Virus record (IMG/VR): IMGVR_UViG_3300048580_000375 | Coordinates: 3,304-67,303 of that record | Strand: one strand, 5' to 3' | Length of the DNA stretch: 64,000 nt | From: a virus | In this document: in pieces, positions 42,401 to 60,477 of the stretch | How positions within the stretch are numbered: the first letter of the stretch is position 1 | How the letters are laid out: each line of letters starts with the position of its first letter | Made by a program: the position numbers and the translations under genes | The notes under the pieces: model-generated | What the model was told of the DNA's origin: nothing | Database searches by the model: none | Seen by the model: the letters and a program-made list of their open reading frames with translations, nothing else

Positions 42401-45080
42401 TTACATCTAAATTATTAACAAATGTAGTATTTGATTTATCAGAAGTAATATTAGAACCAACTATAAATGAATTTGTATGGTTTAAAATTTTATTATTTTC
42501 CCCACCTATTATTGATGAGCTATCACCACTAATACTATTATTTATACCACCACCTATTACTGAAAAAGAACCTAAATTAGATATGTCATTTAAATATCCG
42601 CCACCAATAACTGAACAACACCCATTTGATGTATTATATTTACCACCGGAAATAACACTATCTTTACCGTTAGATGTGTTATGAATACCACCACCTATTA
42701 CTGAACCTGTGTTTAATGTTGTATTTCTTTCACCGCCACCAATAAATGATTTGTAATTACTAACGGTATTATTCCAACCACCACCTATTACACCCCATGA
42801 AGCAATTTGTATCCTGTTACAAAGACCACCAGCTATAGATCCATAATTAGCTGAATTTGTATTACATAATCCACCACCAATAAATGATTGACTACCTGAT
42901 GAGCTATTTAAAAAACCACCACCAACAAATGAATGATTACCCGAAGCGTTATTACTATAACCACCAACAACAACTGAAAAATCACCAAACGCTGAATTAT
43001 TTTGACCACCACCAACAAATTCACCTAGATTAGGGGTACAGCCGGCAATATTATTTAAACCACCGACAACAACTGAATAGTTACCACAAGCGGTATTACC
43101 ACTACCAGATCCAATAAATCCGTAATTACCGATTAAATTATTATTATTACCAACTCCAACGATATTTGAAATCGATGTCCATGTAATACCACTATTTGTC
43201 GAAGTTAAAACGTAATTGGTGTTACCGGTACTCCCATCAAAATCTTTTATTGATTTAGCTGTTAGTTGATTTAATTTTAAATTACTGTAATTTATTATGT
43301 TTATTGTTGATGACGTATAAACACTATTAGTATAACCTAATTTGAATTCTTCATCGACTTCACTCCAAATAAAAGCAGTATCTTCAGTTATACCTCTATC
43401 AATTAAAAAACCGGCATCTTTAGTTGGTATTGTTGTACCTGATGATAAAACAAGTATTGGGTTTGATATGATTAAAGATGATGTATTAATAGTTGTTGCC
43501 GTTCCTGAATATAATAAATTACCATTTATAATTAAATTACCATAAATAGTACCCCCACTTATACTTAATTTTTTATTTAGAAGTTGTGATGATGACCCAA
43601 GAGGGGTGTCGATATTTACCCAATTAATTAAGCCATTTGATTTATTAATACTTAAAATTTGATTTTCAGAGCCGGGACTATTATTACCATCATATAAGTA
43701 ACCTCGAATATTAGTGTTATTAATAAAAACAGTATCATTTCTATTCGCATCACCTGCGTTACCTAAAATAACGACATTACTACAACCACTATCACTATTA
43801 TTATAACCTAAAATATATGAATTAACCCCTGTTGAAGTGTTGTTACAACCTAAAACAATTGAACCCTCACCAGATACTACATTATTATAACCACCAACCA
43901 CAGAGTAGGAACCTAATGCTGAGTTATTACAACCACCAATAACGGAAGATCCGCAATTGGATGTGGTATTACAATTACCACCACCAATTATTGAGTAATT
44001 ACCGTTATTGTAATTATTCGATCCTGCGAAAATACCTGAGTAATTACCATCGGTGATTGTATTATTGGTTCCACCACCAATTATTGAACAAACACCTTTA
44101 TTTTGATCGTCAACATTACCACCTATAAAATTATATTCACCACCGCCAATTAATGATATATTGCCAAAAACAGTGTTATAATTACCACCACCTATAAATG
44201 ATCCTTTATTTATTCCTAATGTATTATATTTACCACCCGAAATGACTTGAAATGAGTCAACACCCCTACCAAGTATCGTATTAAACGCTCCTCCCCCAAT
44301 TGATGAATAAGAACCGGATAATGTGTTATTTAATCCACCATTAATTAATGACAAACAACTTTCACCTTCCGATATTGAATTTTGCTGACCTGAGCCAATA
44401 AAACCCCAATTACCATCTAATAAATTAGATTGACCACCTACAAGAACATTATAGTTATCAATAGTTATAGTGTTATTATCCCCACCACCTATAAATGAAG
44501 AACCTTGAATACCTAATAATCCAGGTCCGCCACCACCTATAATTACGTTACTATTACCGCCTGAATTACCCCAACAAAAACCATCTGATGTAGCGACTAT
44601 AAATTGACCTGTTAAACCTGGTGATCCTACATTATCGTATATATAATCTTTAATGTTTATAGACTCTACAAATGAAGTATTTGTTGTTGTAGCGGTTAAA
44701 TTACTACCTAAAATAACGGAATTAGTTTTATCCGTGTAGTTATTAACGCCACCAATAATAGTAGAACAATTACCAATCGCCGAATTATTAGACCCATTTC
44801 TTACGGTTGAATAACTACCAGTTCCTTGTGTTATGGTATTACCTGTATAATTTGAGAAAAAATTAATATCTATTTTTTCATCTAATATGTTTTTAGTATC
44901 AGATGTATATTGATAAAATGTATCATTTTGAACAACCGGTATAGAATCAACAAAATCATTTATTATGATTTTATTTGATGTATTACTTGATATACTATAT
45001 AGTAATAATAAATCTTCAGACGGTTTTACTTGCCCGCTGTTTATACCTGTTAAATCTTTTAATATTCTTCCTTGTGCCAT
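39453..45080 (-). CDS. Gly-rich repeat fibre/adhesin (beta-roll, S-x-I-G-G-G-x-x-N repeats)
   Basis: 1875 aa; dozens of roughly 15-aa repeats in blocks separated by G.TGQVL.ST..G..W linkers. Confidence 0.8.
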   Translation of the reverse strand: MAQGRILKDLTGINSGQVKPSEDLLLLYSISSNTSNKIIINDFVDSIPVVQNDTFYQYTSDTKNILDEKIDINFFSNYTGNTITQGTGSYSTVRNGSNNSAIGNCSTIIGGVNNYTDKTNSVILGSNLTATTTNTSFVESINIKDYIYDNVGSPGLTGQFIVATSDGFCWGNSGGNSNVIIGGGGPGLLGIQGSSFIGGGDNNTITIDNYNVLVGGQSNLLDGNWGFIGSGQQNSISEGESCLSLINGGLNNTLSGSYSSIGGGAFNTILGRGVDSFQVISGGKYNTLGINKGSFIGGGNYNTVFGNISLIGGGEYNFIGGNVDDQNKGVCSIIGGGTNNTITDGNYSGIFAGSNNYNNGNYSIIGGGNCNTTSNCGSSVIGGCNNSALGSYSVVGGYNNVVSGEGSIVLGCNNTSTGVNSYILGYNNSDSGCSNVVILGNAGDANRNDTVFINNTNIRGYLYDGNNSPGSENQILSINKSNGLINWVNIDTPLGSSSQLLNKKLSISGGTIYGNLIINGNLLYSGTATTINTSSLIISNPILVLSSGTTIPTKDAGFLIDRGITEDTAFIWSEVDEEFKLGYTNSVYTSSTINIINYSNLKLNQLTAKSIKDFDGSTGNTNYVLTSTNSGITWTSISNIVGVGNNNNLIGNYGFIGSGSGNTACGNYSVVVGGLNNIAGCTPNLGEFVGGGQNNSAFGDFSVVVGGYSNNASGNHSFVGGGFLNSSSGSQSFIGGGLCNTNSANYGSIAGGLCNRIQIASWGVIGGGWNNTVSNYKSFIGGGERNTTLNTGSVIGGGIHNTSNGKDSVISGGKYNTSNGCCSVIGGGYLNDISNLGSFSVIGGGINNSISGDSSSIIGGENNKILNHTNSFIVGSNITSDKSNTTFVNNLDVKNHIYDVNNSTGLTGYVLSTTSTGIKWVSASTSNNNTNIIISANLYSSGTTLGSSVRVDNDNLVSGVYSSVLGGFINYNLGCYSTITGGIQNTSSGNYSFIGGGSNNSISGDDSVINGGVNNLVLNNQSLIGGGNCNTILSSNSGILGGENNYTNKTNTFILGSNITSDKTNTTYVNCLDIQTHLFDSFNCQGATGQILSSTPTGVKWVNISGSNQTIITLTGSGIIQEYLNVVGTTNRIQQNNIASGIYSTISGGQTNTSNGRGGVISGGESNTILSNVSTIGGGCKNTISANCSTISGGWFNIITKPFSYIGSGYYNTISGDYGVINGGYINKILGCYSTIGGGCQNTISGCLSTIGGGSLNIASDFNSYIGGGHNNTILKPGGVIGGGWYNTVSGRDSVILGGVYNKSTSNCSGILGGNTNLLTHDNSFIIGNGLSSDRTNTTYVNCLDIQKYLFDSFNNSGSTGQVLTSTRTGVKWGNTGGISNMVYGDYAFIGSGSGNTACGNYSFIGGGINNIAGNTPDKSEIVVGGTNNVVFGDYSTIINGVSNFINNSGEYSTIGGGYLNTIQGTNDTSCIDNFNCYNTIGGGSLNKLTGGFSSIVGGDSNRLYGQNSIIGGGLYNTISGSTNFIGGGFNNLIKTPTNISLTYYYQGCSVINGGESNTILDHWSSIGGGKFNTISGQYSTISGGYCNTTSSVYGAATISGGRFNSINGNFSNILGGSGNHITGDNSSILGGYNNTSTHNNSFVLGSNIITNKNNTTFTQNLDINGYIYASGSTGTTGQVLTTNSSGISWKSIDQSVVIAGVDAGSTYRKDFCNLVSGVYSTVSGGYCNLSRNNSATISGGFRNTADGNRSTIGGGFCNTACQIASTISGGYNNKINLGCYSIIGGGSNNLINGSFSGILGGNNNNICQSHTQSFIIGSNIISNCSCTTFVNNLTLSNGLCPSNLIIQYIPDYTQILSLSTGTIYKDVNGFLKIV

Positions 45081-47032: not shown

Positions 47033-48117
47033 TATATTAATAAATAAGGTGTTTGGAATGGTCTGTATTTTAATATCGTATTTAAATTTTCGGCTTCATT
47101 AGCCTTTCTTTCTAACATCTTAGGCTGACTAATTCGGTCTAAATAATCCTTTAATTCTGTTATTAGTAATTCTTTTTCTTCTTTAGCTGAACTAGCAAAC
47201 ATTTCATAATCCATTTTAATTTCAGCTCCGGGTGATCCTAAATTTCCACTAAATGTTCCTCTTACATATGCTAACGTTTCTTTACATAATGCAGTAAAAT
47301 ATCTTCTTACCCAATATTTAGCCGGTTCGTTTAAATCTGACCATTGTAATTTACTTAATGGAGTATCACTTGGTAATTTAATAATATCTTTATTTTGTTC
47401 AATACATCTTTGTCTTTCTGTATTTACATCGTAATACCAATACCAAACATAATGACCATCAATTCTTCCGGCATTAGCATCAAATCTACCACCAGGTGTT
47501 GGTAATAAATGTAAGTATTTTGTCCCTTTCGGACCTGCCGTTACTTTATATATTAACTCACTTCTAATAATTCTATTCTTTAAGTTTCTGTCTGCCGCTC
47601 TTAATAATATATCAAATGCTGGCATAACATATAACGCACCTAAACCAATATATTCCGCACCAAAATGAAAGTTCCACACACCTAAAAATGGATCAACAAC
47701 CGATTGATTTAAAGTTGGTGGGGTGATATACATAACTTCATTTATTTCCCTACCCGCCGGTATTTCGTATATTTGTTGATTTCTTTTTAATACAACATAA
47801 TCCTTTTTAATTTCCCAAGGTCCATTAGCTTGTAATCCAACTATTTTAGAATAGGCGTAAGTAAATGATGTTTCGTAATTTAAACTTCTGGTAGTTAACG
47901 CAAAAGTAATATCTGCAACATCTAAGTTTATACCTTCTAACGAACTCCATTGATTTTCAATCAACCAATTTTGTGTGTATTGGGCGTAATCTTCAATGGC
48001 TGTTTGTAATAAATCATCCATTTGTTCATCGGTAAGTTGTATTTTCCTGATGGGAGCACCTAAACGAGATTTAACTTGTTTATATAATGCTAACTTTTCC
48101 TCTAATGTTATTTCCAT
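47032..48117 (-). CDS. Neck / head-completion protein (T4 gp13-like)
   Basis: RLGAPIRKIQLTDEQ; WVRRYFTALCKETL..VRG.F. Confidence 0.8.
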   Translation of the reverse strand: MEITLEEKLALYKQVKSRLGAPIRKIQLTDEQMDDLLQTAIEDYAQYTQNWLIENQWSSLEGINLDVADITFALTTRSLNYETSFTYAYSKIVGLQANGPWEIKKDYVVLKRNQQIYEIPAGREINEVMYITPPTLNQSVVDPFLGVWNFHFGAEYIGLGALYVMPAFDILLRAADRNLKNRIIRSELIYKVTAGPKGTKYLHLLPTPGGRFDANAGRIDGHYVWYWYYDVNTERQRCIEQNKDIIKLPSDTPLSKLQWSDLNEPAKYWVRRYFTALCKETLAYVRGTFSGNLGSPGAEIKMDYEMFASSAKEEKELLITELKDYLDRISQPKMLERKANEAENLNTILKYRPFQTPYLLI

Positions 48118-48497
48118 TCTTGGTTGTTATATTTTAGTATTTTGGGTATAAATTTATTAAATATTTTAGGCGAATATTTTATCATAAAATCTAATTCTTC
48201 CTGAGCAATATCTTCAGATGGGAAAGTAACTGGTTTAACTTTTTCACCTTTATCGTTAAATTTTGATATAAAACAACAAGTCCCATCATAATATTGAGAT
48301 AAAAAATATTTTTTAGGTTTATATTTTTCATCTAAGTTAAATGTATCTTTAAATCTATTAACTACTTTCTTATAATCATTTAATTCATCTTTATTAATGA
48401 AAATAATATAATAGGTTTTTTCACCACCAAAAGTATGGGTTTTATGTAAATCACCAACTTCATTAATAACACCTTTACTAATAATTACTTTTTTCAT
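48108..48497 (-). CDS. Hypothetical protein
   Basis: ORF track. Confidence 0.65.
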   Translation of the reverse strand: MKKVIISKGVINEVGDLHKTHTFGGEKTYYIIFINKDELNDYKKVVNRFKDTFNLDEKYKPKKYFLSQYYDGTCCFISKFNDKGEKVKPVTFPSEDIAQEELDFMIKYSPKIFNKFIPKILKYNNQEWK

Positions 48498-48543: not shown

Positions 48544-49329
48544 ATGATAAATAAAATTGCTTATTTTGGAGATTTACATCTTAGACTTTATAAATACCAC
48601 TACGAATATAAAGATATATTCTTTAATCAATTCATACCGAAATTAAAAGAAATAAAACCAGATAGAATATGTTTCGGAGGTGATTGGGCTCATTCCAAAA
48701 ATCAAGCAACCCCTGAATTATTTGAAATATCTTGTATATTCTTAAATGAACTTACCAAAATAGCTCCTGTTGTTCTTACGTTAGGTAATCACGATTTATT
48801 ATTAAATAATTTAGATAGGTTAGATATTTTAACACCTATATTAAATGCTTTAAGTAATGATAAAATTACGTTCTTAAATAAAACAGGGTGTTATGAAGAT
48901 GAAAATATTGTTTGGTGTGTTTGGGGTATAACTGAAGGTAATACAAAACCTGAAATAATTAGAGAAGAAGGGAAACATTATATTGGATTACAACACGGTC
49001 CTTTAAGAGGTTCTACAACTGACTTAAACTTTATATTTGAGGATGGGTTAGATATTGAGGATTTTAATGATTGTGATGTTGCTTTAAATTCCGATATTCA
49101 TAAAAGAAATGTTATGACAACTGAAAAAGGTATTCCGGTTGTGATGGTGGGTAGTTTGGTACAGCAGTCGCATGGGGAAAAAATAAATAATCACGGATTT
49201 TTAGAATATACGATTGAAGATAAAGGTATAAAGTTTCACGATCTCCACAATGATTATGTTTTTATGAATTATAAAATATCATCAATAGATGATATTGAAA
49301 ATGAAAGTGAAGTACTATTAAATCTATGA
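48544..49329 (+). CDS. Mre11/SbcD (gp47-like) metallophosphoesterase nuclease
   Basis: GDLH, GGDW, GNHD, HG and DIHK motifs. Confidence 0.88.
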   Translation: MINKIAYFGDLHLRLYKYHYEYKDIFFNQFIPKLKEIKPDRICFGGDWAHSKNQATPELFEISCIFLNELTKIAPVVLTLGNHDLLLNNLDRLDILTPILNALSNDKITFLNKTGCYEDENIVWCVWGITEGNTKPEIIREEGKHYIGLQHGPLRGSTTDLNFIFEDGLDIEDFNDCDVALNSDIHKRNVMTTEKGIPVVMVGSLVQQSHGEKINNHGFLEYTIEDKGIKFHDLHNDYVFMNYKISSIDDIENESEVLLNL

Positions 49330-49709
49330 GAACATTAAAAGATAACAATTCATTAATTAAAAAGTGGGAATATAGTGGACTTTTAAAGTATACCCAAAAC
49401 CCTAAAATGATGGCTTATTGTTTAGAATATTCTGCTAAAACATTACTTGATTCAGGTATAAGTGAAAATAACGGTATGATTATCCCAATAATATTTAGGG
49501 TAATAAATAATATAAAACCAACATTTAGACACGATAGTAAAATAATTATTAAAGATATTATGGAAAGATTTCCAAATTTTATGTTGGATAAAAGAAGGGT
49601 TATTGATGATTTAAAATTTTTTACTAGTATGGATTGGGAAGCGGAAATGTGTCAATTATTTGTTGAGGAATATTTAAAGATATATGAGAACAATAAATCA
49701 ATACGTTAG
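49326..49709 (+). CDS. Small protein resembling the N-terminus of a T4-type major capsid protein
   Basis: LIKKWEYSGLL...MAYCLE..AK.LL...IIPIIFRV. Confidence 0.55.
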   Translation: MRTLKDNNSLIKKWEYSGLLKYTQNPKMMAYCLEYSAKTLLDSGISENNGMIIPIIFRVINNIKPTFRHDSKIIIKDIMERFPNFMLDKRRVIDDLKFFTSMDWEAEMCQLFVEEYLKIYENNKSIR

Positions 49710-49944
49710 TAGAAAAAAAACTAAAAAAACTTTTACCGAACAATGGGGGGCGTTATTGAATGGTGTTATAATGCCAACAATACAAAGATTTACCCACAGA
49801 ACATTAGGTGAAGATATAGTGTCAGTTCAACCAATGGAGGCGCCTATTGGTATTCTTAATTACATAGATTTTCAATACGGAGTTGCGTCAGAATCAACAT
49901 TTCCTTTTTGGAAAATTAAAGTTATATTTAATAAAAAAAAATAA
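49684..49944 (+). CDS. Small protein resembling the gp23 Gol-peptide region
   Basis: VIMPTIQRF..TLGEDIVSVQPMEAPIGILNYIDFQY. Confidence 0.7.
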   Translation: MRTINQYVSRKKTKKTFTEQWGALLNGVIMPTIQRFTHRTLGEDIVSVQPMEAPIGILNYIDFQYGVASESTFPFWKIKVIFNKKK

Positions 49945-49945
49945 T

Positions 49946-50518
49946 ATGGATTTAAGGGCAAAAATTGAAAAAAATAAAACACGATTTATTGATAGTGTTA
50001 AAAATTATGGTAATTTCATTACTGATGAATTATACGAATTTTTAGGTGAAGATTTATGGACATCACCAGCATCAACTACATTACAATTACATAATTGTTT
50101 TCCTGGTGGATTAGTTGATCATATATTAAAAGTTACGGCTTATGCTGTCAAGATAAATGATACATTACCTGAAAAACTTAGAGTTGATAAATCATCAATT
50201 ATTAAAGTTTGTTTCCTACATCAAATTGGTAAAATTAAACTATATTTATTAAATGATACTGATTGGGAAATTAAAAGAGGTATCTTATATAAGTTTAATG
50301 AAGAACTACCGTCTATGAAAATAAGTGAGAGGGGTTTATTCTATTGTAATCAATATGGTGTGAAATTATCAGATGTTGAGTTCCAAGCGATAATGAATTT
50401 TGAAAAAACTGATGAAGATAGACAATCAAGATGGTATAGTGATATATTATCGATAATATTAAAACAAGCTATTGAACTCGCTATTTTTGAAGAAAAACAA
50501 TCAAATGAGAAGTCTTAA
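49946..50518 (+). CDS. HD-domain-like hydrolase
   Basis: PAS...HNCFPGGLVDH...FLHQIGK; likely ATG start at 49946. Confidence 0.75.
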   Translation: MDLRAKIEKNKTRFIDSVKNYGNFITDELYEFLGEDLWTSPASTTLQLHNCFPGGLVDHILKVTAYAVKINDTLPEKLRVDKSSIIKVCFLHQIGKIKLYLLNDTDWEIKRGILYKFNEELPSMKISERGLFYCNQYGVKLSDVEFQAIMNFEKTDEDRQSRWYSDILSIILKQAIELAIFEEKQSNEKS

Positions 50519-50936
50519 AGAAATAGTAGCATATAGAAGTTTTAACAATAATAAGTTTAACCTCATTCTCACACCGAGACAATGGGGTTTAACTACGTTA
50601 TTAATTAGTTATATAAATCAAATACCAAATGGTAAATCAATATTATTTGGTGTGAGTAATCCTACTATGGTTATAGAAACTAACAGAAGAATAACACACT
50701 CTAATTGTAGAATTCAAATCATTCACGAATCAAGTTTAATTGGATATGGATTTGATTATATTATATGTGATAATTTTTTTAATGATAGTTGGATTCAAAA
50801 ATTAGTGTTAATAGCACCAGTTTTAAACCCAAATGGTAAGATAATATTAGCGGATAGTGGTAGGTGTTTAGGGTATCAAATGGAATATTTTAGAAACTAC
50901 AATAAAATAATAAAAACAAGTTTAGATAATGGATGA
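50505..50936 (+). CDS. Truncated, degenerate terminase-like P-loop ATPase fragment
   Basis: FNLILTPRQWGLTT (Walker A-like, K to L); GYGFDYIICDNF (Walker B-like); GKIILADS. Confidence 0.6.
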   Translation: MRSLKEIVAYRSFNNNKFNLILTPRQWGLTTLLISYINQIPNGKSILFGVSNPTMVIETNRRITHSNCRIQIIHESSLIGYGFDYIICDNFFNDSWIQKLVLIAPVLNPNGKIILADSGRCLGYQMEYFRNYNKIIKTSLDNG

Positions 50937-51603
50937 TGTAAGAAAAAAGATGATGGGTTTGGTTACGGCTTTCTTTATGGGTTTAAATGAGGCAGATAAA
51001 CAAATCTTAAAATCTCAATTAAACACTGTTGATGAATCACAACTAGGTCATCACCAAATGAATATTAAAAGCCCGTTTTTAAATGGGATAAATCAAGGTA
51101 AGATAACTGAAGAACAAAGACAACATTTTTATAAGGTATTACACCTTGCAGAACAAAAATGGAGAACATCAAAAGGATTTGATGATCCTGAAAAAATGAG
51201 AACATTGATGGAAAAAAGGGGAATGAATGGTGTATTAGAAAGTATTAGTTGTGAGCCAATAGATATGGGGCTTAGTAATGAATTTTACTACCCTGTAAGA
51301 ACAAATGCTGAACAATTTGAAATTGAAAAGATTGCTGAGAATATGTTGGTATATGACAATGAAATTAAATTTAGGTGTCCTATGTTTAATAATAGGAGAA
51401 TATTTGAAAATATAAGAGGTGAGGGTAATGTATTAAGGGAATTAATGAATACAACACAAGTTGAATGGGATAAAAAAGAATTTGACAATGTGGGTGTTAA
51501 ATACACTTATAATACATATGATTATAATGTAAGTTATAAGAATACAATAAAAGAAAATGATGACTATTTTTTAGTTGTGTTTAATAAAAATAATATAATA
51601 TAA
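50929..51603 (+). CDS. Hypothetical protein
   Basis: ORF track. Confidence 0.7.
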   Translation: MDDVRKKMMGLVTAFFMGLNEADKQILKSQLNTVDESQLGHHQMNIKSPFLNGINQGKITEEQRQHFYKVLHLAEQKWRTSKGFDDPEKMRTLMEKRGMNGVLESISCEPIDMGLSNEFYYPVRTNAEQFEIEKIAENMLVYDNEIKFRCPMFNNRRIFENIRGEGNVLRELMNTTQVEWDKKEFDNVGVKYTYNTYDYNVSYKNTIKENDDYFLVVFNKNNII

Positions 51604-51604
51604 T

Positions 51605-51796
51605 ATGGAAAACGGATTTATAATAATAAAGAAAGAAACTCTTCAGGAGTTAGTTAAAAATTTCTATAAGGTGTGTAGTCTAGCGGATGAATGTAATATT
51701 TACGAACATGATTATTTAGATGAGTCAATGCAAGAAATGAAGTCTTGGGTGGATGATAAATTTGGTAGAACTATTAAAGAAGAGACTTATGAATAA
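51605..51796 (+). CDS. Hypothetical protein
   Basis: ORF track. Confidence 0.65.
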   Translation: MENGFIIIKKETLQELVKNFYKVCSLADECNIYEHDYLDESMQEMKSWVDDKFGRTIKEETYE

Positions 51797-52334
51797 TAAT
51801 ATGGAAAATATATTTTTAAAATGTGAATGTCATTCTCACGGACTTGAAGTCGAAGTTGATAGAAACTCTGAAAACCCAAATAATTCAGAGTTTATGTTTA
51901 GTATTTGGGAGTATGGTAAAAAAACCAAACCATCATTTAAACAAAGATGGGATTATTTTTGGACTGGTAATAATGATATGATTAACGATCACGTTATTAT
52001 GGATCTAAAAAAAGCGTCTGAATTATCAAAATATTTGGTATCTAATATTGATAAAATTAATGTGGATATTAAAAAACATAACTCTTCTAATGGTTTAATT
52101 AGGGATTTAATTAAAAAATCTGAAGAAAATTTAGAGAAGATTTTAAAAAGAAAACCTAAAAAAGTTGTACCGACAAAACAACAAGTGGAAAAGGATATTA
52201 TGGTTAAATCGGAAAAAATTAAAACCGGTAATGATAATAAAATTGAAAAAATTGGTGAATTAATTATTCCTACAAATGGTGCTGGTTTTCAAGGGGGTGA
52301 ATCAGGTGATGGTTTAAGTGGATTTAGGGGTTAG
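51789..52334 (+). CDS. Hypothetical protein (CECHSH motif)
   Basis: ORF track; start uncertain (51753, 51789 or 51801). Confidence 0.65.
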   Translation: MNNNMENIFLKCECHSHGLEVEVDRNSENPNNSEFMFSIWEYGKKTKPSFKQRWDYFWTGNNDMINDHVIMDLKKASELSKYLVSNIDKINVDIKKHNSSNGLIRDLIKKSEENLEKILKRKPKKVVPTKQQVEKDIMVKSEKIKTGNDNKIEKIGELIIPTNGAGFQGGESGDGLSGFRG

Positions 52335-52385: not shown

Positions 52386-53945
52386 ATGATTAAAAATGGT
52401 CTAAGTATCGTTTGTTCTATGCGAGAACACGATAAAGAGTTTGAAGAACACGTTAAAAAAACTATCGGATTAAAGGATTATGAGTTATTGTTTTACATAA
52501 ATCCAGGAACACATTCACTTACAGAATTATATAATAAAGGATTAAATGAATCCAAGAACAAATACGTTCTTTTCTGTCATAATGATATTAAATACCTTAA
52601 ATCGGGTTGGGGTAAAAGATACATTGAACAACTTGAAAATAAAGATTATGGTATTATAGGACACGCTGGAACCACAAAATTAACTGAAAGTGGAAGATGG
52701 TGGGATGATATGAATTTGATGGTAGGTCAAGTATGGCATCAACACAATGATGAACAATCAGGTAAAACTATGAAATGGGAATCAAAATATTCGGGTAATT
52801 TTGGTTATGAGGTAATTAATACTATTAATTTGGATGGCTTAGCTTTCTGTGTTAATAAAGAAAAAATTAAAGAAAGATTTGATGAAAACATAAAAGGGTT
52901 TCACTTTTATGATTTAGATTTTACATTGGCGAATCATATCGCTGGTGTTGAAATTGGTGTTATTTTTGATAACCCTATTTTACATAAATCAATTGGGATG
53001 ACAGACGAACAATGGGAAACTACGAGACAACAATTTGTTGATAAGTGGATTAATGTCGGTATCCCATTAGAAATTAAACCAATTAACGTATTTCATGATA
53101 AACACGTAAATAAACCCTTACCTAAAGAACCTAAATTAGCAATAATTATCCCAAGTAAAAACAACTACGATTTATTAGAAAGGTGTGTTAAATCTATTCA
53201 AGAAACGAAGTTTTCTAATTATAAAATTTATATTGCTGACACTGGTTCATTAAAAGTTACGGTTGATAAAATCAAAGAAAATTTATTAAATGATAAAGTG
53301 GTGTTAAACCAGTATGGTTACTATAACTTTAGTAAGATTAATAACGATATGGTAAATAATTTTATCGATAAGGATAGTGAGTTAGTATTATTTTGTAACG
53401 ATGATGTCTATATTAAAGAAGGTGATCCAATTACAAGAATGACTACGATTTACGTTAATAATAAACATGATATTGGGACGATAGGTTTAAGATTACATTT
53501 CGGTGAAAGAAGTGGTGATAAGGTAAATAAAGTTCAACATGGCGGTGTAATTGCTTTTACTAATGGACAAGAAATAAGAATAACACATCAAGGGTTAGGT
53601 AGTTATTGGGGTTATGAACCAAGTGTGAAAAGAGATGTGTTTGGTAATACGTTTGCTTTTGCTATGACACCTATGAATGTTTGGAAGAAAGTCGGTGGGT
53701 TAAATGAAATATTTGAAGAATGTTTTGAGGATGTGGAATTTAATTTAAAATGTATATTAAATGGAAAAACCAATTACTTTATTGGTGATGAATACGCAAT
53801 TCACGATGAATCATCATCAAGAAATAAATCACAAGAAAAATTACAAAAAGAATCTTTGGATTACCAAAAGATTGTAAAAATAATAAGTGGTTATATGTGG
53901 AATGAAAGACTACAAAAATTAATAAAATTTATAAACAAACAATAA
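52386..53945 (+). CDS. Two-domain GT-A glycosyltransferase
   Basis: LFCHNDI..FHFYDLD N-terminal domain; AIIIP, FCNDD and EDVE GT2 domain. Confidence 0.85.
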   Translation: MIKNGLSIVCSMREHDKEFEEHVKKTIGLKDYELLFYINPGTHSLTELYNKGLNESKNKYVLFCHNDIKYLKSGWGKRYIEQLENKDYGIIGHAGTTKLTESGRWWDDMNLMVGQVWHQHNDEQSGKTMKWESKYSGNFGYEVINTINLDGLAFCVNKEKIKERFDENIKGFHFYDLDFTLANHIAGVEIGVIFDNPILHKSIGMTDEQWETTRQQFVDKWINVGIPLEIKPINVFHDKHVNKPLPKEPKLAIIIPSKNNYDLLERCVKSIQETKFSNYKIYIADTGSLKVTVDKIKENLLNDKVVLNQYGYYNFSKINNDMVNNFIDKDSELVLFCNDDVYIKEGDPITRMTTIYVNNKHDIGTIGLRLHFGERSGDKVNKVQHGGVIAFTNGQEIRITHQGLGSYWGYEPSVKRDVFGNTFAFAMTPMNVWKKVGGLNEIFEECFEDVEFNLKCILNGKTNYFIGDEYAIHDESSSRNKSQEKLQKESLDYQKIVKIISGYMWNERLQKLIKFINKQ

Positions 53946-54721
53946 TGACTAAATTAGGTATAGCATATAATATTTTTGATGACTCAATAGAGTTGTTAGA
54001 AAAATCAATTTTATCTGTTAGAAATGTCGCTGATTACATCACAGTAATATATCAAGACATTTCTAATATGGGTAATGAATCTGAAGTAAATTTAAAAGAA
54101 TTACTAACCGAATATAAAAATAAAGGTTTAATAGATTCTTTTTATTTATATAAACCACAATTAAACGCACCTATTCCACATATTAATGAAATAAATAAAA
54201 GGAATATGGGTTTATATGTTTGTCAAGGTGAAGGTTGTACTCATTTTATGTCAATGGATTCTGATGAATTCTATAAAGAAGATGAGTTAAGGAAAGTATT
54301 AAACGTAATGGTTGAAGGTGATTATGATTCATCTGCTTGTCAATTACAAACTTATTGGAAGAGCGGTAAATGGGTTTTAAATCCACCTGAAGAATATTAT
54401 GTTAGTTTAATATATAAAATTAGATCTGGTGTGGATTTTGTATTGGGACACGTATTTCCTGTTTTAGTTGATCCAACAAGAAGAATGAATCCTGGTAATT
54501 GTAAAATATTTACAAGGGATGAAATAGAAATGCATCACGCATCATATGTTAGAAATGACATAGCTAAAAAATTATTTAATAGTTCATCTATAAGTAGTTT
54601 TGGTGATATTATTGAAGATTTAATTAATTACTTTAATAATTGGAAAGAAGGTGATAAAGCATTTATGCCTGATAGAAATAAATATGATCTTAAAAAAGTG
54701 GAAAATTTGTTTAATATATGA
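53945..54721 (+). CDS. GT2-like glycosyltransferase
   Basis: KRN.GL and MDSDEFY motifs. Confidence 0.75.
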   Translation: MTKLGIAYNIFDDSIELLEKSILSVRNVADYITVIYQDISNMGNESEVNLKELLTEYKNKGLIDSFYLYKPQLNAPIPHINEINKRNMGLYVCQGEGCTHFMSMDSDEFYKEDELRKVLNVMVEGDYDSSACQLQTYWKSGKWVLNPPEEYYVSLIYKIRSGVDFVLGHVFPVLVDPTRRMNPGNCKIFTRDEIEMHHASYVRNDIAKKLFNSSSISSFGDIIEDLINYFNNWKEGDKAFMPDRNKYDLKKVENLFNI

Positions 54722-55452
54722 AAATAGCTGTTTGTTTACACCTTTTCTATACCGATATGTGGGAAGAAATAACACATTATTTGGATAATATTAATCATCC
54801 ATATAAATTATATGTTAGTTTAGTAGATAGTTATTATGATGAAAGTATTATGGATAAAATTCACTCGTATAAACCAGATATGGCTACAATTGTTGTGGTT
54901 GAAAACAAAGGTGTTGATATTGGTGGATTTTTAAATGTCTATCCGTTAGTTGATGAAGATACTGATTTAATATTAAAAATACACGGTAAGAAAAGTATTG
55001 GATTACCTAATAAACCATCAGATATGGTTAAAGTTTATGGTATGGAAAGTGCAATACAAAAAGGTAGAGAATGGTTTGAAAGAAATATGAATGGTATTCT
55101 AAAAAACTCAGATTTTGTAGATAGTATAATTGATAGATTTAAAACCGATGAAACTTGTGGTTTAATTGGACATAATTTAGAGACTTACGTTGGACCTAAC
55201 GACTTTTTAGTAAAAGAATTAATTAAAATGTTTGGGTTAAATCCTAATGTATATGGATCACCATTTATAGATGGGACTATGTTTTGGGTTAGAAACGATT
55301 TATTTAAAAAATATTTAACCGAAGATGGTGTTAGAAATATATTAAAAATGATACCAAAAGGTTATCAAAACGAACCATCAATTAACCATTCACTTGAAAG
55401 GATTTTTGGTTATATTATAAAAAATGAAAATAAAGAAGTTATTGTTTTATGA
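54718..55452 (+). CDS. Rhamnan synthesis F (RgpF)-like protein
   Basis: AVCLHLFY, NKGVDIGGF, KIHGKKS, GTMFW and HSLER motifs. Confidence 0.85.
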   Translation: MKIAVCLHLFYTDMWEEITHYLDNINHPYKLYVSLVDSYYDESIMDKIHSYKPDMATIVVVENKGVDIGGFLNVYPLVDEDTDLILKIHGKKSIGLPNKPSDMVKVYGMESAIQKGREWFERNMNGILKNSDFVDSIIDRFKTDETCGLIGHNLETYVGPNDFLVKELIKMFGLNPNVYGSPFIDGTMFWVRNDLFKKYLTEDGVRNILKMIPKGYQNEPSINHSLERIFGYIIKNENKEVIVL

Positions 55453-56114
55453 TATTAAATGAATATTTTGATAAAGCATTTTGTATAAATCTTGACAGAA
55501 GAAATGATAGGTGGGAAGAAGTTCAACCAATCTTTATAAAGGAAAATATTGAAATTGAAAGATTTAGTGCTTGTGATGGTAATAAAGAGTTTAATTTACC
55601 GATAGTTGAAGGTGGTCCGGCATCAAATGCTGAGTTGGGTGGGACTAAATCACATATGGATGTTATTATAAGAGCGAAAGAATTGGGATTAAAGAATGTT
55701 TTAGTTTTTGAAGATGATGTTGATTTAATACCAAATATAAATGAAGAGTTTTCTAAAGTTTTAGAACAGATACCTGATGATTGGGATATGATTTATTTTG
55801 GTGGTAATCATGTTGGTGGTTTATTACAAATTAGTCCTAATATATGTAGAGCTGGTAGAACTTATGCTTTACAAATGTATGCGGTAAATGAAAAGTTTTA
55901 TGATTTGGCTATAAAATATTATTCAGATAAAATTAAATGGGTTTTAAGTGGTAGACAACCATTAAAACCATCGGTAGCTGCGGATTATTTCATTGCGGAT
56001 TTACACCAAATAATAAATTGTTATGTAATTAAACCACACTTCTCTTGGCAAAGAAAAAGTTATTCTGATTTAGCGGAGCAAGTGGTTGATTATAATTTTT
56101 TAAAAAATAAATAA
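55449..56114 (+). CDS. GT25 glycosyltransferase
   Basis: INLDRRNDRW, SH, VFEDD and WDMIYFG motifs. Confidence 0.88.
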   Translation: MILNEYFDKAFCINLDRRNDRWEEVQPIFIKENIEIERFSACDGNKEFNLPIVEGGPASNAELGGTKSHMDVIIRAKELGLKNVLVFEDDVDLIPNINEEFSKVLEQIPDDWDMIYFGGNHVGGLLQISPNICRAGRTYALQMYAVNEKFYDLAIKYYSDKIKWVLSGRQPLKPSVAADYFIADLHQIINCYVIKPHFSWQRKSYSDLAEQVVDYNFLKNK

Positions 56115-56117
56115 AAT

Positions 56118-56867
56118 ATGAAAATAGATGAATTAGCTTTAAAACACGGCACTGATAAATCCAGTTTGGATCACTATTACACCCAATTTTATCAAAAATA
56201 CTTTGATAAGTATGTTAGTAACCCTAAAAAAATATTAGAGTTAGGTATTTACACAACAACAAAAAGTACTGATTTAGAAACATCGGGTGCATCATTAAAA
56301 ACATGGTCTGAATATTACCCTGAATCAGATATCTATGGTTTAGATTTAAGCGACTACTCGATATTAGATAATACTTATAAAAATATACACACCTTACCTT
56401 GTAATACTGAAATTAGAAAAAATGATGATGTATATAAATTACAAAATCCGTGGCTAAGAGAAATATATACAAACCCTAAACACCAATTAATTGGTGGTGG
56501 TGTAGGTTTAGAAGATATTGAAAAAAAATTCGGTAGTGATTTTGATATTATAATTGATGATGGTCCACATACAATGTCAGGACAACAAATATTTTTAGGG
56601 TATATGTTTAAGCATTTAAAATCGGGTGGAATATTTGTTATTGAAGATTTGTGTACTTCAGATATTAATAAATGGGGGTCGACATATAATAGTTATCCAT
56701 TTACCGAAAAAAATACTTTATGGGTGATTAATTATTATATTAAACATAAAAAAATAGTCACAGATTTTATGTTAGAAAATGAGATTAAGTATTTGGAAGA
56801 TAACATTTCTGAAATGTATTTAGAAACCGCTAATAATTCTGAAATTGTTTTTATAGTTAAAAAATGA
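56118..56867 (+). CDS. Class I SAM-dependent (sugar O-)methyltransferase
   Basis: GTDK, ILELG, FDIIIDDGPH and GGIFVIED motifs. Confidence 0.85.
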   Translation: MKIDELALKHGTDKSSLDHYYTQFYQKYFDKYVSNPKKILELGIYTTTKSTDLETSGASLKTWSEYYPESDIYGLDLSDYSILDNTYKNIHTLPCNTEIRKNDDVYKLQNPWLREIYTNPKHQLIGGGVGLEDIEKKFGSDFDIIIDDGPHTMSGQQIFLGYMFKHLKSGGIFVIEDLCTSDINKWGSTYNSYPFTEKNTLWVINYYIKHKKIVTDFMLENEIKYLEDNISEMYLETANNSEIVFIVKK

Positions 56868-57637
56868 TAACGTGTGAATTAATGGGTGGTTTAGGAAATC
56901 AATTATTCCAAATCGCAACAACAACAGCACTTGCTTTACGAAATAACGATAACGCTTGTTTCGATATTGATGGTCATAAAATAGGGTTACAAGGAAGAGA
57001 TGCTATAAATTATAAGGAAAATATTTTTAGGAATTTATTAAACCAAAAAATAGAAACAAATAATGTTTTCGAACAAAATGGGTTTCATTATGAAAATATA
57101 CCTTATTCTAAGAATCTTAAATTAAGTGGTTATTTCCAGAGTGAAAAATATTTCATTGATTATAGGGATGAAATATTAGAATTATTAAGTCCTGGTGAAA
57201 AGATAGAAAAATATATTGAACAAAAATTTGGGGAAATATTGAAGAAAAAAACTTGTTCACTCCATGTTAGACATGGTGATTATTTACAATTATCTAATTA
57301 TCACCCACCATGTTCGGTTAAATATTATACAGAGGCAATTAAAATGTTTGATGATGATACTTTATTTATTATTTTTTCTGACGATATTTCTTGGTGTAAG
57401 TCTGTATTTAGAGGAGATAATTTTTTCTTTATAGAAAATGAAGAGGATTATATTGACTTATATATTATGAGCAAATGTTTAGATAATATAATGGCGAATA
57501 GCTCATTTAGTTGGTGGGGGAGTTGGTTAAATAAAAACGAAAATAAACGTGTAATTGTTCCGAGTAAATGGTTCGGTAAAGGATATTTTGATTGGAATAT
57601 AAATGATGTTTATACAAATAAAATGATAAAATTATGA
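56864..57637 (+). CDS. GT11 alpha-1,2-fucosyltransferase
   Basis: GGLGNQLFQ, GYFQSEKYF, HVRHGDY and NSSFSWW motifs. Confidence 0.92.
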   Translation: MITCELMGGLGNQLFQIATTTALALRNNDNACFDIDGHKIGLQGRDAINYKENIFRNLLNQKIETNNVFEQNGFHYENIPYSKNLKLSGYFQSEKYFIDYRDEILELLSPGEKIEKYIEQKFGEILKKKTCSLHVRHGDYLQLSNYHPPCSVKYYTEAIKMFDDDTLFIIFSDDISWCKSVFRGDNFFFIENEEDYIDLYIMSKCLDNIMANSSFSWWGSWLNKNENKRVIVPSKWFGKGYFDWNINDVYTNKMIKL

Positions 57638-58326
57638 TGAATTTTAGTTTTGGAATATGTAAGGGTATTAATTCACCCTTTTTGAAAGAAATAATTTATT
57701 CTATACGACAACAAAATATAGATAATTATGAAATAATAATTGTAGGGGAAAAACATACAGAATTTGGTGATGATATTATTAATATAGATTTCGATGAAAG
57801 TATTAAACCAGGTTGGATAACTAAAAAGAAAAATTTAATAACTAAGAATGCTAAGTATGAAAATATAGTTTATCTTCACGATTATGTTTATTTTAAACAT
57901 GACTGGTATAAAGGTCAAATCCTTAAAGGGTGTGATATTAAAATTAGAATGGATAAGATAAAAAACAATAATGGTGATAGATTTAGAGATTGGTGTATTT
58001 GGCCTAATAATGATAATGTTATTGATAATATTATAGGTAGAAGTATAATGATACCTTACGATATGACACATTTATCAAAATATATGTATATTAATGGAAC
58101 TTATTGGATTGCTAACAAAAAAATAATGACAGAATTCCCGTTAAATGAAGATTTAGTTTGGGGTGAAAGTGAGGATGTTGAATGGTCAAAAAGAGTTAGG
58201 GAAAAATATAGTTTTGAAATGAATGACTTTTCCGAAGTAAGATTATTAAAACAACATTCAAACCACGATTTTAGTGAATGTAATAATGATATTATAAAAA
58301 TATTAAAAGAATATGAAAAAAATTAA
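57634..58326 (+). CDS. GT2-like glycosyltransferase
   Basis: KKN, YLHDY and EDVEW motifs. Confidence 0.75.
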   Translation: MMNFSFGICKGINSPFLKEIIYSIRQQNIDNYEIIIVGEKHTEFGDDIINIDFDESIKPGWITKKKNLITKNAKYENIVYLHDYVYFKHDWYKGQILKGCDIKIRMDKIKNNNGDRFRDWCIWPNNDNVIDNIIGRSIMIPYDMTHLSKYMYINGTYWIANKKIMTEFPLNEDLVWGESEDVEWSKRVREKYSFEMNDFSEVRLLKQHSNHDFSECNNDIIKILKEYEKN

Positions 58327-60474: not shown

Positions 60475-60477
60475 TTT

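What the first reader, a model, noticed from the sequence alone, without database searches (positions are those of the whole stretch)
50505..50936. Apparently inactive, stand-alone terminase ATPase fragment next to the capsid mimics
Seen: a 143-aa ORF with FNLILTPRQWGLTT (gp17-type RQxGKT with Lys changed to Leu), a Walker B-like FDYIICDN lacking the catalytic Glu, and GKIILADS, with no nuclease domain. Established: Avs1-3 STAND NTPases recognise large terminase folds. Inference: together with the capsid-like and tube-like fragments, this may be a set of decoy mimics of phage pattern-recognition targets.
Basis: partly seen in the sequence, partly recalled or inferred. Interest (0 to 1): 0.7.

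Follow-up and report, generated by a model that had tools for sequence, protein, structure and literature searches.

The report
Inactive terminase-ATPase mini-protein with shared leader
A small, conserved gene of an uncultured lake phage encodes a catalytically disabled copy of the DNA-packaging motor's ATPase core, and it is one of a set of mini-proteins (others are capsid-protein fragments) that share a short N-terminal tag and may be packed into the virus head.

Summary
The ORF is real: 50505..50936 (+), 143 aa, with the motifs as described. It is conserved as a stand-alone protein (57 database proteins) and under purifying but relaxed selection: median dN/dS is 0.41, against 0.06-0.08 for its neighbours.

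New here: the protein starts with a 7-residue leader, M-R-S-hydrophobic-K-E/N-hydrophobic. At least 9 other small ORF families of this phage lineage, mostly basic, share it, including three separate gp23 capsid fragments. The leader resembles the T4 internal-protein capsid-targeting sequence.

Best reading: a non-catalytic, TerL-derived binding protein, possibly packaged and injected. The Avs-decoy idea is neither tested nor excluded.

The parts
50505..50936 (+). CDS of the 143-aa TerL-ATPase-like protein (P0001); the end coordinate includes the stop codon
   Evidence: 57 homologues; AF2 model with pLDDT 74.8; hhalign to TerL at 93.9%
50505..50525 (+). Shared N-terminal leader MRSLKEI (residues 1-7). 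The first 14 nt overlap the end of the upstream HD gene.
   Evidence: Leader pattern is over-represented: 5 ORFs against 0.085 expected, and 6, 10 and 5 ORFs in G000, G001 and G002. Conserved in the family: R2 in 53 of 59, S3 in 52 of 59, hydrophobic residue at position 4 in 56 of 59 and at position 7 in 57 of 59. Residues 1-16 have pLDDT below 50.
50571..50597 (+). Degenerate Walker A / P-loop, TPRQWGLTT (residues 23-31); L29 stands where T4 gp17 has K166
50751..50774 (+). Walker B-like strand FDYIICDN (residues 83-90). D89 stands opposite gp17 D255 and N90 opposite the catalytic E256.
50835..50858 (+). C-motif-like strand GKIILADS (residues 111-118), opposite gp17 SKIIITTT (280-287)
49946..50518 (+). 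Upstream 190-aa HD-like gene; its stop lies 12 nt inside P0001. The usual HD dyad reads HQ (LHQIGK) in 9 of 9 sequences.
   Evidence: Pfam HD E 0.005, below the cut-off; phrog_5889 and phrog_28876; alignment A4; directly upstream in 8 of 8 loci that reach that far; dN/dS 0.08
50929..51603 (+). Downstream 224-aa gene of unknown fold; its start overlaps the P0001 stop by 8 nt
   Evidence: Present downstream in 7 of 7 loci that extend far enough, 1.3 kb away in L050; dN/dS 0.06; no family hit; AF2 failed with pLDDT 36.7
49684..49944 (+). Leader-tagged 86-aa gp23 (major capsid protein) N-terminal fragment, MRTINQY...
   Evidence: Pfam Gp23 positions 5-50, E 1e-4; BLASTP to T4 gp23 residues 94-157 at E 7e-5 and residues 4-25 at E 0.012; dN/dS 0.43
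49326..49709 (+). Leader-tagged 127-aa ORF of unknown family, MRTLKDN...
   Evidence: conserved in 6 loci; dN/dS 0.46
978..1328 (-). Leader-tagged 116-aa ORF, MRSVKQI...
   Evidence: no family hit
31298..31465 (+). Leader-tagged 55-aa ORF, MRSIKNK...
34331..34663 (+). Leader-tagged 110-aa ORF, MKSIKDI...

Best explanation
Shown:
- The gene encodes a conserved, basic (pI 9.4), about 16-kDa protein.
- Its folded part, residues about 17-141, is a cut-down copy of the gp17-type large-terminase ATPase core (RecA-like subdomain I).
- It has no upstream adenine-binding motif, no subdomain II and no nuclease domain. About 30 residues are deleted between the second and third strands.
- The Walker A lysine (L29), the arginine before Walker B (I79) and the catalytic glutamate (N90) are replaced in all close relatives.
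- The remnants of the nucleotide pocket are the most conserved part of the protein.
- The first seven residues form a leader, M-[RK]-[ST]-hydrophobic-[KN]-x-hydrophobic. At least 9 other small ORF families of the same phage lineage share it. Most are basic and those measured evolve fast, and three of them are separate fragments of the major capsid protein gp23.

Inferred:
- The protein cannot hydrolyse ATP and works by binding something through the conserved former active-site face.
- By analogy with T4 internal proteins, which are diverse cargo sharing only a 10-19-residue capsid-targeting sequence, the leader directs these mini-proteins into the prohead core. They would then be delivered into the host with the DNA and act early, in host takeover or counter-defence.
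- The target is unknown.
For: Homology to TerL:
- hhalign of the family profile A2 (31 sequences) against a 10-sequence gp17-type TerL ATPase alignment gives 93.9%, E 1.6e-7, over 117 columns, with all three motifs in register. A1 (25 sequences) gives 83.0%.
- Against a full-length TerL alignment the score is 87.1%, aligned to gp17 residues 147-290.
- Controls built from the same phages all fail: UvsW 0.5/0.6%, Dda 0.3/0.2%, PhoH-like 0.5/1.4%, gp41 0.8/0.2%, reversed TerL 0.2%.
- The distant relative P0065 (phmmer E 6.7e-5) keeps a Lys in the P-loop, a D-E Walker B and a YDFQ motif like cyanophage TerL. On its own it scores 75% to TerL over 172 columns.

Fold:
- Other terminases follow: 8dgc_E at 11.3, D6E at 10.2, Sf6 at 9.7.
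- Foldseek finds 2o0j at E 7.3e-4, TMq 0.63.

Loss of catalysis and selection:
- L29 and N90 are invariant in 25 of 25 sequences.
- Median dN/dS is 0.41 (range 0.30-0.66, 21 pairs). HD is 0.08, ORF224 0.06 and the Mre11-like gene 0.06.

Leader:
- 5 ORFs in the window against 0.085 expected (maximum 2 in 200 shuffles).
- With the wider pattern, 6, 10 and 5 ORFs in G000, G001 and G002 against 0.06, 0.19 and 0.05 expected.
- 18 of 21 have pI above 7.5. The background median is 5.7.
- Leader-tagged gp23 fragments: Pfam Gp23 E 3.4e-14, 2e-3 and 1e-4.
- T4 leaders read from the T4 record are MKTYQEFIAE (IPII, IPIII) and MKTFKEF... (IPI).
- PMC9026906 section 2.6 says targeting depends mainly on residues 4 and 7. 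Those positions are hydrophobic in 56 and 57 of 59 family members.
- PMC3012670 calls the T-even internal proteins a diverse set of defence proteins with only a conserved CTS (passages).
- Residues 1-16 are disordered in the model.
Against: Against the TerL link:
- The similarity rests on the three motif blocks. With those 25 residues masked, the hhalign score falls to 0.3%.
- No Pfam, PHROG, NCBIfam or PDB-sequence hit to any terminase.
- One family member, P0061, scores only 0.5% to TerL.
- P0065 also passes the Pfam Methyltransf_31 cut-off on its C-terminal half (32.8 bits).

Against the packaging reading:
- The leader resemblance to the T4 CTS covers 7 residues and is a pattern, not homology.
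- A Glu that could fit the T4 protease logo [LI]-x-E is at position 6 in only 38 of 59 sequences. There is no conserved Glu near position 10.
- No gp21-type protease, full-length gp23 or TerL lies on the three available genome fragments, which are 20%, 34% and 10% complete. The head module could therefore not be inspected.
- There is no virion proteome.
- The leader ORFs are scattered in operons of mixed function, so the leader could serve another purpose.
Confidence: 0.42

Rival explanations
1. Immune decoy. The dead TerL core, together with the gp23 fragments, binds host pattern-recognition sensors of terminase or capsid folds (Avs1-3 and others) without activating them, and so shields the real proteins. 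This could operate from the cytoplasm or after injection, so it is a possible function within the best explanation as well as a rival to it.
For: - Avs1-4 recognise terminase and portal folds by direct binding, and Avs families monitor most core phage proteins (PMC13581612 passages; PMC13728456 passages).
- KpAvs2 is predicted to contact the TerL ATPase domain (PMC11564622, section 7 passage).
- dN/dS is higher in exactly the fragment genes, 0.41-0.46.
- The MCP and TerL fragments occur together in one lineage.
Against: - No test of binding or of suppression was possible, and the host and its defences are unknown.
- The only published small phage protein with a TerL-ATPase-like fold, Ksap2, triggers KpAvs2; it does not block it (PMC11564622, section 9).
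- The two anti-Avs proteins named in the preprint 10.1101/2025.06.06.658234 (passages) are a ligase (ORF55) and a Rossmann-fold protein (ORF83), not mimics.
- My searches found no published terminase or capsid decoy.
- The fragment lacks the nuclease domain and subdomain II.
Confidence: 0.12
2. Cytoplasmic non-catalytic subunit or regulator. The protein is not packaged. It pairs with the products of the translationally coupled neighbours (HD-like protein, ORF224), or with the phage's own or a competitor's packaging motor, as an adaptor or dominant-negative paralogue.
For: - The gene overlaps both neighbours, by 14 nt upstream and 8 nt downstream.
- The order HD - TerL-like - ORF224 is kept in 8 of 8 loci upstream and 7 of 7 downstream.
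- The HD-like neighbour also has a degenerate catalytic dyad, HQ, in 9 of 9 sequences.
- The conserved former nucleotide pocket suggests a binding surface.
Against: - The neighbours evolve five to seven times more slowly in dN/dS, which is unusual for obligate partners.
- This reading does not explain the leader shared with unrelated mini-ORFs elsewhere in the genome.
- In L050 the TerL-like gene and ORF224 are separated by 1.3 kb.
Confidence: 0.2
3. Not terminase-derived. A generic small RecA-like or Rossmann-like protein (helicase-like, or a degenerate class I methyltransferase) whose motif resemblance to TerL is convergent.
For: - The structural match to gp17 is tied with many helicase domains.
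- The best Foldseek E-value is UvrB, 6.8e-4.
- Weak Methyltransf_31 hits: P0001 at E 0.22 and P0065 at 6.5e-8.
- The TerL profile match disappears when the motifs are masked.
- The ESM Atlas gives only unnamed viral clusters, one with ResIII on 19% of members.
Against: - Four helicase/ATPase control profiles from the same phages score 1.4% or less, while TerL scores 83-94%.
- Methyltransferase structures match with TMq 0.41-0.47 and rmsd 6-12. gp17 matches with TMq 0.63 and rmsd 3.9.
- There is no GxGxG SAM motif.
- P0065 aligns to TerL over 172 columns, including the upstream motif.
Confidence: 0.12
4. Still an enzyme. The protein binds and hydrolyses a nucleotide with non-canonical residues, for example R25 or a partner's residue in trans.
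For: - D84 and D89, T30/T31 and R25 are conserved.
- Bona fide terminases with a deviant P-loop exist. Halovirus HRTV-26 TerL reads GRRIGVSY, with the Lys further upstream, in the alignment.
Against: - No Lys anywhere in the P-loop of the close family.
- Asn replaces the catalytic Glu in 25 of 25 sequences.
- The adenine-binding region is absent.
Confidence: 0.05

Closest known systems
ATPase domain (N-terminal subdomain I) of the T4 gp17-type large terminase (Pfam Terminase_6N; PDB 2o0h, 3cpe)
   Same: - Same order and spacing of P-loop, Walker B strand and C-motif strand.
- TerL-flavoured residues are kept (R25-Q26 before the P-loop Gly, T30-T31, G80, D89), in register with gp17 R162-Q163, T167-T168, G246 and D255.
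   Different: - 143 aa against 610 aa.
- No residues corresponding to gp17 1-146, so no adenine-binding motif.
- About 30 residues deleted after the second strand.
- No subdomain II and no nuclease domain.
- Substitutions K166 to L, R245 to I, E256 to N, and TTT to ADS.
- Below every Pfam and PHROG threshold.
- The functional roles of the gp17 residues are recalled from the literature, not read here.
T4 internal head proteins IPI, IPII, IPIII with their capsid-targeting sequence
   Same: - Small, mostly basic proteins, diverse in sequence, that share only a short N-terminal leader with hydrophobic residues at positions 4 and 7. Compare MKTFKEF (IPI) with MRSLKEI (P0001).
- Variable in content between related genomes.
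- IPI* is an injected anti-restriction protein (PMC3012670 passages).
   Different: - Packaging, cleavage and injection are not shown for any of these ORFs.
- No conserved Glu at the T4 cleavage positions.
- The cargo here includes fragments of the phage's own conserved head and packaging proteins. My searches did not find this described.
Ksap2 (Bas60_220), KpAvs2-stimulating protein 2
   Different: - Ksap2 activates the sensor.
- No sequence relationship: tblastn of P0001 against 50,697 phage records found nothing at E <= 1.
- P0001's TerL signal is much stronger.
- The Ksap2 sequence itself was not examined here, because supplements are closed.
Published anti-Avs proteins ORF55 and ORF83
   Same: Phage accessory proteins proposed to counter Avs type III (10.1101/2025.06.06.658234 passages).
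   Different: They are a DNA ligase and a DprA/Smf-like Rossmann protein. Neither is a mimic of the sensed protein.

Membership tests
gp17-type large terminase, ATPase domain (Pfam PF03237 Terminase_6N) | Match to the family HMM above the gathering score | tested here: not met
   No Terminase family listed for P0001 at E <= 1; no terminase PHROG; PF03237 finds nothing in the contig
gp17-type large terminase, ATPase domain (Pfam PF03237 Terminase_6N) | Profile-profile similarity to TerL ATPase with motifs in register, and not to other P-loop families | tested here: met
   93.9% (A2) and 83.0% (A1) against TerL. Scores against UvsW, Dda, PhoH-like and gp41 are 1.4% or less; reversed TerL gives 0.2%. 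Caveat: the match is lost when the motifs are masked.
gp17-type large terminase, ATPase domain (Pfam PF03237 Terminase_6N) | RecA-like ASCE fold most similar to terminase ATPase domains | tested here: inconclusive
   [not shown]
gp17-type large terminase, ATPase domain (Pfam PF03237 Terminase_6N) | Walker A lysine (G-K-T/S) | tested here: not met
   L29 in 25 of 25 sequences; it aligns to gp17 K166
gp17-type large terminase, ATPase domain (Pfam PF03237 Terminase_6N) | Catalytic Glu directly after the Walker B Asp | tested here: not met
   D89-N90 invariant, opposite gp17 D255-E256
gp17-type large terminase, ATPase domain (Pfam PF03237 Terminase_6N) | Adenine-binding Y/F-Q motif upstream of Walker A | tested here: not met
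   P0001 has gaps opposite the DYQ of gp17. The motif is present in the distant relative P0065 as YDFQ.
Full large terminase (ATPase plus nuclease) | C-terminal RNase H-like nuclease domain, in the same protein or an adjacent gene | tested here: not met
   - The ORF ends at residue 143.
- No fused forms of 491-2000 aa were found (weak evidence).
- PF17289 is absent from G000-G002.
- Downstream ORF224 scores 0.2% against full-length TerL, and its fold could not be modelled.
T4-type internal head proteins (CTS-bearing) | N-terminal capsid-targeting-like leader shared by otherwise unrelated small proteins | tested here: met
   over-representation; T4 leaders; positions 4 and 7 hydrophobic in 56 and 57 of 59
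T4-type internal head proteins (CTS-bearing) | Prohead-protease cleavage site ([LI]-x-E) ending the leader | tested here: inconclusive
   I/L/V-K-E at positions 4-6 in 38 of 59 sequences; N or D in 17 of 59. No gp21-type protease on the available fragments.
T4-type internal head proteins (CTS-bearing) | Presence in the virion and ejection into the host | not testable with these tools
   Uncultured phage; no cultured relative
Anti-Avs / immune decoy | Binds a terminase-sensing receptor and blocks its activation | not testable with these tools
   Host and receptors are unknown; no assay is available
Class I SAM-dependent methyltransferase | Family HMM above cut-off, GxGxG SAM loop, methyltransferase fold as best match | tested here: not met
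   Methyltransf_31 at E 0.22, 11.7 bits against a cut-off of 27. The loop reads PRQWGLT. Methyltransferase structures match at TMq 0.41-0.47 against 0.63 for gp17.

The most novel reading that the evidence does not exclude
A T4-like jumbo phage of lakes tags cut-down, catalytically dead fragments of its own most conserved and most immune-visible proteins (three pieces of the major capsid protein and the terminase ATPase core) with a capsid-targeting leader. It packs them into the head and injects them with the DNA as pre-delivered decoys. These would occupy host pattern-recognition sensors (Avs-type, Lit- or CapRel-type) before the real proteins are made.
Probability: 0.08. Interest if true: 0.9.

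Novelty: new variant of a known kind. Interest (0 to 1): 0.62.

Why it matters
Large terminases and major capsid proteins are the textbook conserved phage proteins, and they are the main ligands of bacterial pattern-recognition immunity. A phage lineage that keeps small, fast-evolving, catalytically dead fragments of exactly these proteins, all behind one shared N-terminal tag, is unusual.

If the tag is a capsid-targeting signal, it would extend the T4 internal-protein paradigm to a distant, uncultured, freshwater jumbo phage. It would also show a new source of cargo: pieces of the phage's own core genes.

If the fragments act on host sensors, that would be the first case of mimicry of a protein ligand of Avs-type receptors.

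Even the minimal result is useful for annotation. It defines a stand-alone pseudo-ATPase family derived from TerL that current Pfam, PHROG and NCBIfam models miss.

Tried and rejected
- Family libraries gave nothing for P0001: Pfam, PHROGs, NCBIfam and PADLOC. A PDB sequence profile search gave a best E of 0.29.
- The ESM Atlas gave only unnamed viral clusters at about 0.9.
- tblastn of P0001 and of ORF224 against cultured phages found no match. The 361-aa neighbour has only a 24%-identical hit in a Microcystis phage.
- hhalign against a single gp17 sequence (0.3%) and BLASTP (E 0.30) were too weak.
- The gp17 homologue search returned only proteins at least 83% identical among the 120 listed. 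It was useless for a diverse profile, so I built one from tblastn 'spread' hits. 11 loci were fetched. 2 of them, T751 and RaK2, were dropped because a large insertion interrupts their P-loop region.
- The search for longer fused forms found none. The tool itself calls this weak evidence.
- AlphaFold of ORF224 from 8 near-identical sequences failed, with pLDDT 36.7, so its fold is unknown. The Atlas had nothing for it.
- Complex prediction of the HD-like protein with P0001 returned 'no answer' (score 0.19, mark 0.32). This is evidence neither way.
- Promoter, terminator and TATAAATA scans were at chance level in this 28% GC sequence.
- Contigs from RNA libraries cover parts of the HD gene and of ORF 51753..52334 but not P0001. 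Contigs cannot show absence, and DNA may be present in such libraries. Expression of P0001 is therefore not shown.
- No TerL, Terminase_6C, gp21 protease or full-length gp23 lies on the three genome fragments. The true terminase could not be located, and a recent-duplication test could not be done.
Repoila et al. 1994 is not held. Supplementary tables of the Avs papers were not seen and may bear on the comparison with Ksap2.
Full report
**What is there.**
- The window is bases 3304-67303 of a 67,303-base viral contig that CheckV rates about 20% complete. GC is 28%.
- It carries T4-like replication genes: a helicase, a gp32-like SSB and a UvsX-like recombinase. It also carries very large tail or fibre genes.
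- It overlaps the end of an upstream 190-aa HD-like gene by 14 nt. Its own stop overlaps the start of a downstream 224-aa gene by 8 nt.

**It is a real, conserved gene.**
- A word-indexed search of 5.8 billion proteins found 57 proteins with E <= 0.01 among 65 candidates. They are 55-93% identical, nearly all 138-156 aa long, and none has a Pfam domain.
- An exhaustive phmmer scan of 1.84 billion cluster representatives added only a few more distant members: 13 hits at E <= 1e-3 and 8 at <= 1e-10.
- In an alignment of 25 members, W27 G28 L29 T30 and D84 Y85 I86 C88 D89 N90 are invariant.
- Ten related loci were recovered, 2 from viral contigs and 8 from metagenome contigs.
  - The HD-like gene is directly upstream in 8 of 8 loci that reach that far.
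  - ORF224 is downstream in 7 of 7 loci that extend that way, once with a 1.3-kb insertion between.
- Nei-Gojobori dN/dS, leaving out six codons at each end because of the overlaps, has these medians (a first version is):
  - This gene: 0.41 (0.30-0.66; 7 sequences, 21 pairs).
  - HD: 0.08. ORF224: 0.06. Mre11-like gene: 0.06.
  - ORF127: 0.46. gp23-like ORF: 0.43.
- The gene is therefore under purifying selection, but it evolves much faster than the enzymes around it.
- The stretch, or most of it, occurs in lake and freshwater metagenome runs of many studies. 9 runs hold at least half of the sampled words, and one of them may be the source.
- DNA contigs of two of these runs carry a 15-nt insertion behind 50533. 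It corresponds to the 5 extra residues of most homologues.

**Fold.**
- AlphaFold2 on the 25-sequence alignment gave mean pLDDT 74.8 and pTM 0.73. The fold is beta-alpha-beta, and residues 1-16 are disordered.
- Foldseek against the PDB gave three hits at E <= 0.001:
  - UvrB, 6.8e-4, TMq 0.40.
  - T4 gp17 ATPase 2o0j, 7.3e-4, TMq 0.63.
  - T4 gp17 3cpe, 8.3e-4.
- The Avs3-bound PhiV-1 terminase is at rank 10. Methyltransferases score only TMq 0.41-0.47.
- DEAD-box, HelD and other helicase RecA domains follow within one Z unit. Other terminases score 11.3 (PhiV-1), 10.2 (D6E) and 9.7 (Sf6).
- Among predicted viral structures, terminases, helicases and several small uncharacterised phage P-loop proteins all match.
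- Fold alone therefore says 'RecA-like ASCE NTPase domain'. It does not say 'terminase'.

**Is it specifically terminase-like?**
- No library model says so.
- I built a 10-sequence alignment of gp17-type TerL ATPase regions: T4 plus 9 phages spread from 70% down to 28% identity. 2 of the 11 fetched loci were dropped because an insertion splits their P-loop.
- As controls I built alignments of UvsW (10 sequences), Dda (5), PhoH-like (5) and gp41 (10) proteins from the same phage genomes.
- hhalign of the family against TerL:
  - A1: 83.0%, E 9e-6, 115 columns. With the alternative match-state setting (-M first): 77%, 112 columns.
  - A2, which adds six distant members: 93.9%, E 1.6e-7, 117 columns.
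  - Against a full-length TerL alignment: 87.1%, on gp17 residues 147-290.
- The same family profiles score 0.2-1.4% against all four controls and 0.2% against the reversed TerL alignment.
- For scale, UvsW against Dda gives 93.9%, Dda against PhoH-like 95.8% and TerL against UvsW 75.3%.
- Residue correspondences in the alignment:
  - R25-Q26-W27-G28-L29-T30-T31 lies on gp17 R162-Q163-L164-G165-K166-T167-T168.
  - I79-G80 lies on R245-G246.
  - D89-N90 lies on D255-E256.
  - A116-D117-S118 lies on T285-T286-T287.
  - About 30 gp17 residues after the second strand have no counterpart.
- The distant member P0065 (280 aa; phmmer E 6.7e-5) retains lysines in the P-loop (KPRQKGVTT), a D-E Walker B and an upstream YDFQ motif like cyanophage TerL. 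On its own it scores 75% to TerL over 172 columns.
- Results against this reading:
  - If the three motif blocks (25 residues) are masked, the score collapses to 0.3%.
  - One member, P0061, scores 0.5%.
  - P0065 also passes the Pfam Methyltransf_31 cut-off on its C-terminal half.
- I conclude with about 80% confidence that the family descends from a terminase ATPase domain.
- That gp17 K166, E256, R162 and the TTT motif are catalytically essential is recalled knowledge, not read here.

**Activity.**
- No lysine occurs in the P-loop of any close member, and Asn replaces the catalytic Glu.
- The region upstream of Walker A that carries the adenine-binding motif is absent.
- ATP hydrolysis is therefore very unlikely. 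This is an inference.
- The remnants of the pocket are the most conserved residues of a fast-evolving protein. That suggests the former active-site face is now a binding surface.

**The shared leader, found while checking the 'capsid mimics'.**
- A Pfam Gp23 search of the related 109-kb contig G001 found three short matches and no full-length capsid gene.
- Two of them are consecutive mini-ORFs, and a third mini-ORF of 74 aa follows them:
  - 81 aa: Gp23 profile positions 131-194, E 3.4e-14.
  - 84 aa: positions 310-353, E 2e-3.
- All three begin MRTINQY, MRTIKQY or MRSLKNL. Three ORFs in the window begin the same way:
  - ORF127: MRTLKDN.
  - The gp23-like ORF: MRTINQY.
  - P0001: MRSLKEI.
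- Counts for the leader pattern:
  - ORFs of at least 30 aa starting M-R-[ST]-[ILV]-[KNR] number 5 in the window. The shuffle mean is 0.085 and the maximum is 2 in 200 shuffles.
  - With M-[RK]-[ST]-[ILVM]-[KNR] there are 6, 10 and 5 in contigs G000, G001 and G002, against 0.06, 0.19 and 0.05 expected.
- The 21 ORFs fall into 11 distinct families. One of them, a 237-aa lipoprotein-like ORF, is probably unrelated.
- No conserved upstream DNA accompanies the leader.
- 18 of the 21 have pI above 7.5 (P0001: 9.4). The median is 5.7 for the 44 ORFs of at least 150 aa.
- Within the TerL-like family the leader is conserved although the next residues vary and carry indels. Out of 59 sequences:
  - R2 in 53 and S3 in 52.
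  - Hydrophobic residue at position 4 in 56.
  - K at position 5 in 52.
  - E at position 6 in 38.
  - Hydrophobic residue at position 7 in 57.
- The T4 record gives the internal-protein leaders MKTYQEFIAE (IPII, IPIII) and MKTFKEF... (IPI).
- Two reviews bear on this:
  - PMC9026906, section 2.6: these 10-19-residue propeptides are capsid-targeting sequences, and targeting depends mainly on residues 4 and 7.
- The parallel is close: small, basic, diverse, fast-evolving proteins with one shared short leader.
- It remains an analogy. The cleavage logo is not consistently present. No protease or scaffold gene lies on the available fragments. No virion data exist.

**Function.**
- The decoy hypothesis could not be tested.
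- It fits the facts that terminase and capsid folds are sensed by Avs families and that KpAvs2 is predicted to contact the TerL ATPase domain.
- The closest published case runs the other way. Ksap2 is a small phage protein with weak TerL-ATPase-like fold, and it activates KpAvs2.
- The two anti-Avs proteins named in the preprint 10.1101/2025.06.06.658234 are not mimics.
- Four literature searches found no described terminase or capsid decoy and no described inactive terminase paralogue of this kind.
- My odds:
  - TerL-derived, non-catalytic binding protein: about 0.8.
  - Leader family real: about 0.9.
  - Leader is a head-targeting signal: about 0.4.
  - Decoy of immune sensors: about 0.1.

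**Verdict.** The finding is a new variant of known kinds, namely the terminase ATPase fold and, possibly, T4-type internal proteins. Its most interesting aspect lies outside the given coordinates: a leader-tagged set of fragments of core virion and packaging proteins.

Noticed in passing
window 49684..49944 (+); G001 95773..96018, 96018..96272 and 96269..96493 (= L051 1474..2194): Stand-alone mini-ORFs that are fragments of the gp23 major capsid protein, each behind the shared leader. The N-terminal piece aligns to T4 gp23 residues 4-25 and 94-157. The middle piece matches Pfam Gp23 positions 131-194 (E 3.4e-14). The C-terminal piece matches positions 310-353 (E 2e-3). The N-terminal fragment family also keeps an invariant C-terminal FPFW[KR]IKVIF. 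From memory, T4 gp23 residues about 93-122 are the Gol peptide that activates the Lit protease; this was not checked here.
   Followed up: partly
window 978..1328 (-), 31298..31465 (+), 34331..34663 (+), 49326..49709 (+): Further small ORFs with the same leader and no recognisable family. Homologues are present in G001 and G002.
   Followed up: partly
window 49946..50518 (+): The HD-like protein has LHQIGK where HD-domain proteins usually have the H-D dyad. Q is invariant in 9 of 9 sequences, yet dN/dS is 0.08. It may be a second pseudo-enzyme in the same operon, or a variant metal site.
   Followed up: partly
window 50929..51603 (+): A 224-aa protein with very strong constraint (dN/dS 0.06, 91-96% identity across loci) and no detectable family. 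The model failed, with pLDDT 36.7.
   Followed up: partly
window 52386..61251 (+): A long run of glycan-synthesis genes. Pfam hits are Glyco_tranf_2_5 plus GT2, GT2, RgpF, GT25, a methyltransferase, GT11 (fucosyltransferase family), GT10, and a HAD-nucleotidyltransferase fusion. This is unusual cargo for a phage. The target (DNA, virion or host surface) is unknown.
   Followed up: partly
window 48108..48497 (-) and the same position in L001 (7693..7992) and L002 (7714..8001); L001 6240..6557: A hypervariable slot between conserved structural genes and the Mre11-like gene. The three relatives carry different small ORFs there (129, 99 and 95 aa). G001 has an extra leader-type ORF, MKTIKLT..., inserted between two baseplate-region genes.
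   Followed up: no
L010 (Klebsiella phage T751) and L013 (RaK2) terminase loci: Both terminase genes carry a large insertion at the P-loop region, intein-like by position. It is unrelated to the finding, but it forced me to drop them from the TerL profile.
   Followed up: no
window 39453..45080 (-): A 1875-aa ORF made of many G/N/S-rich repeats with recurring 'TTFV.NL.I..' modules. It is probably a fibre. Not examined.
   Followed up: no
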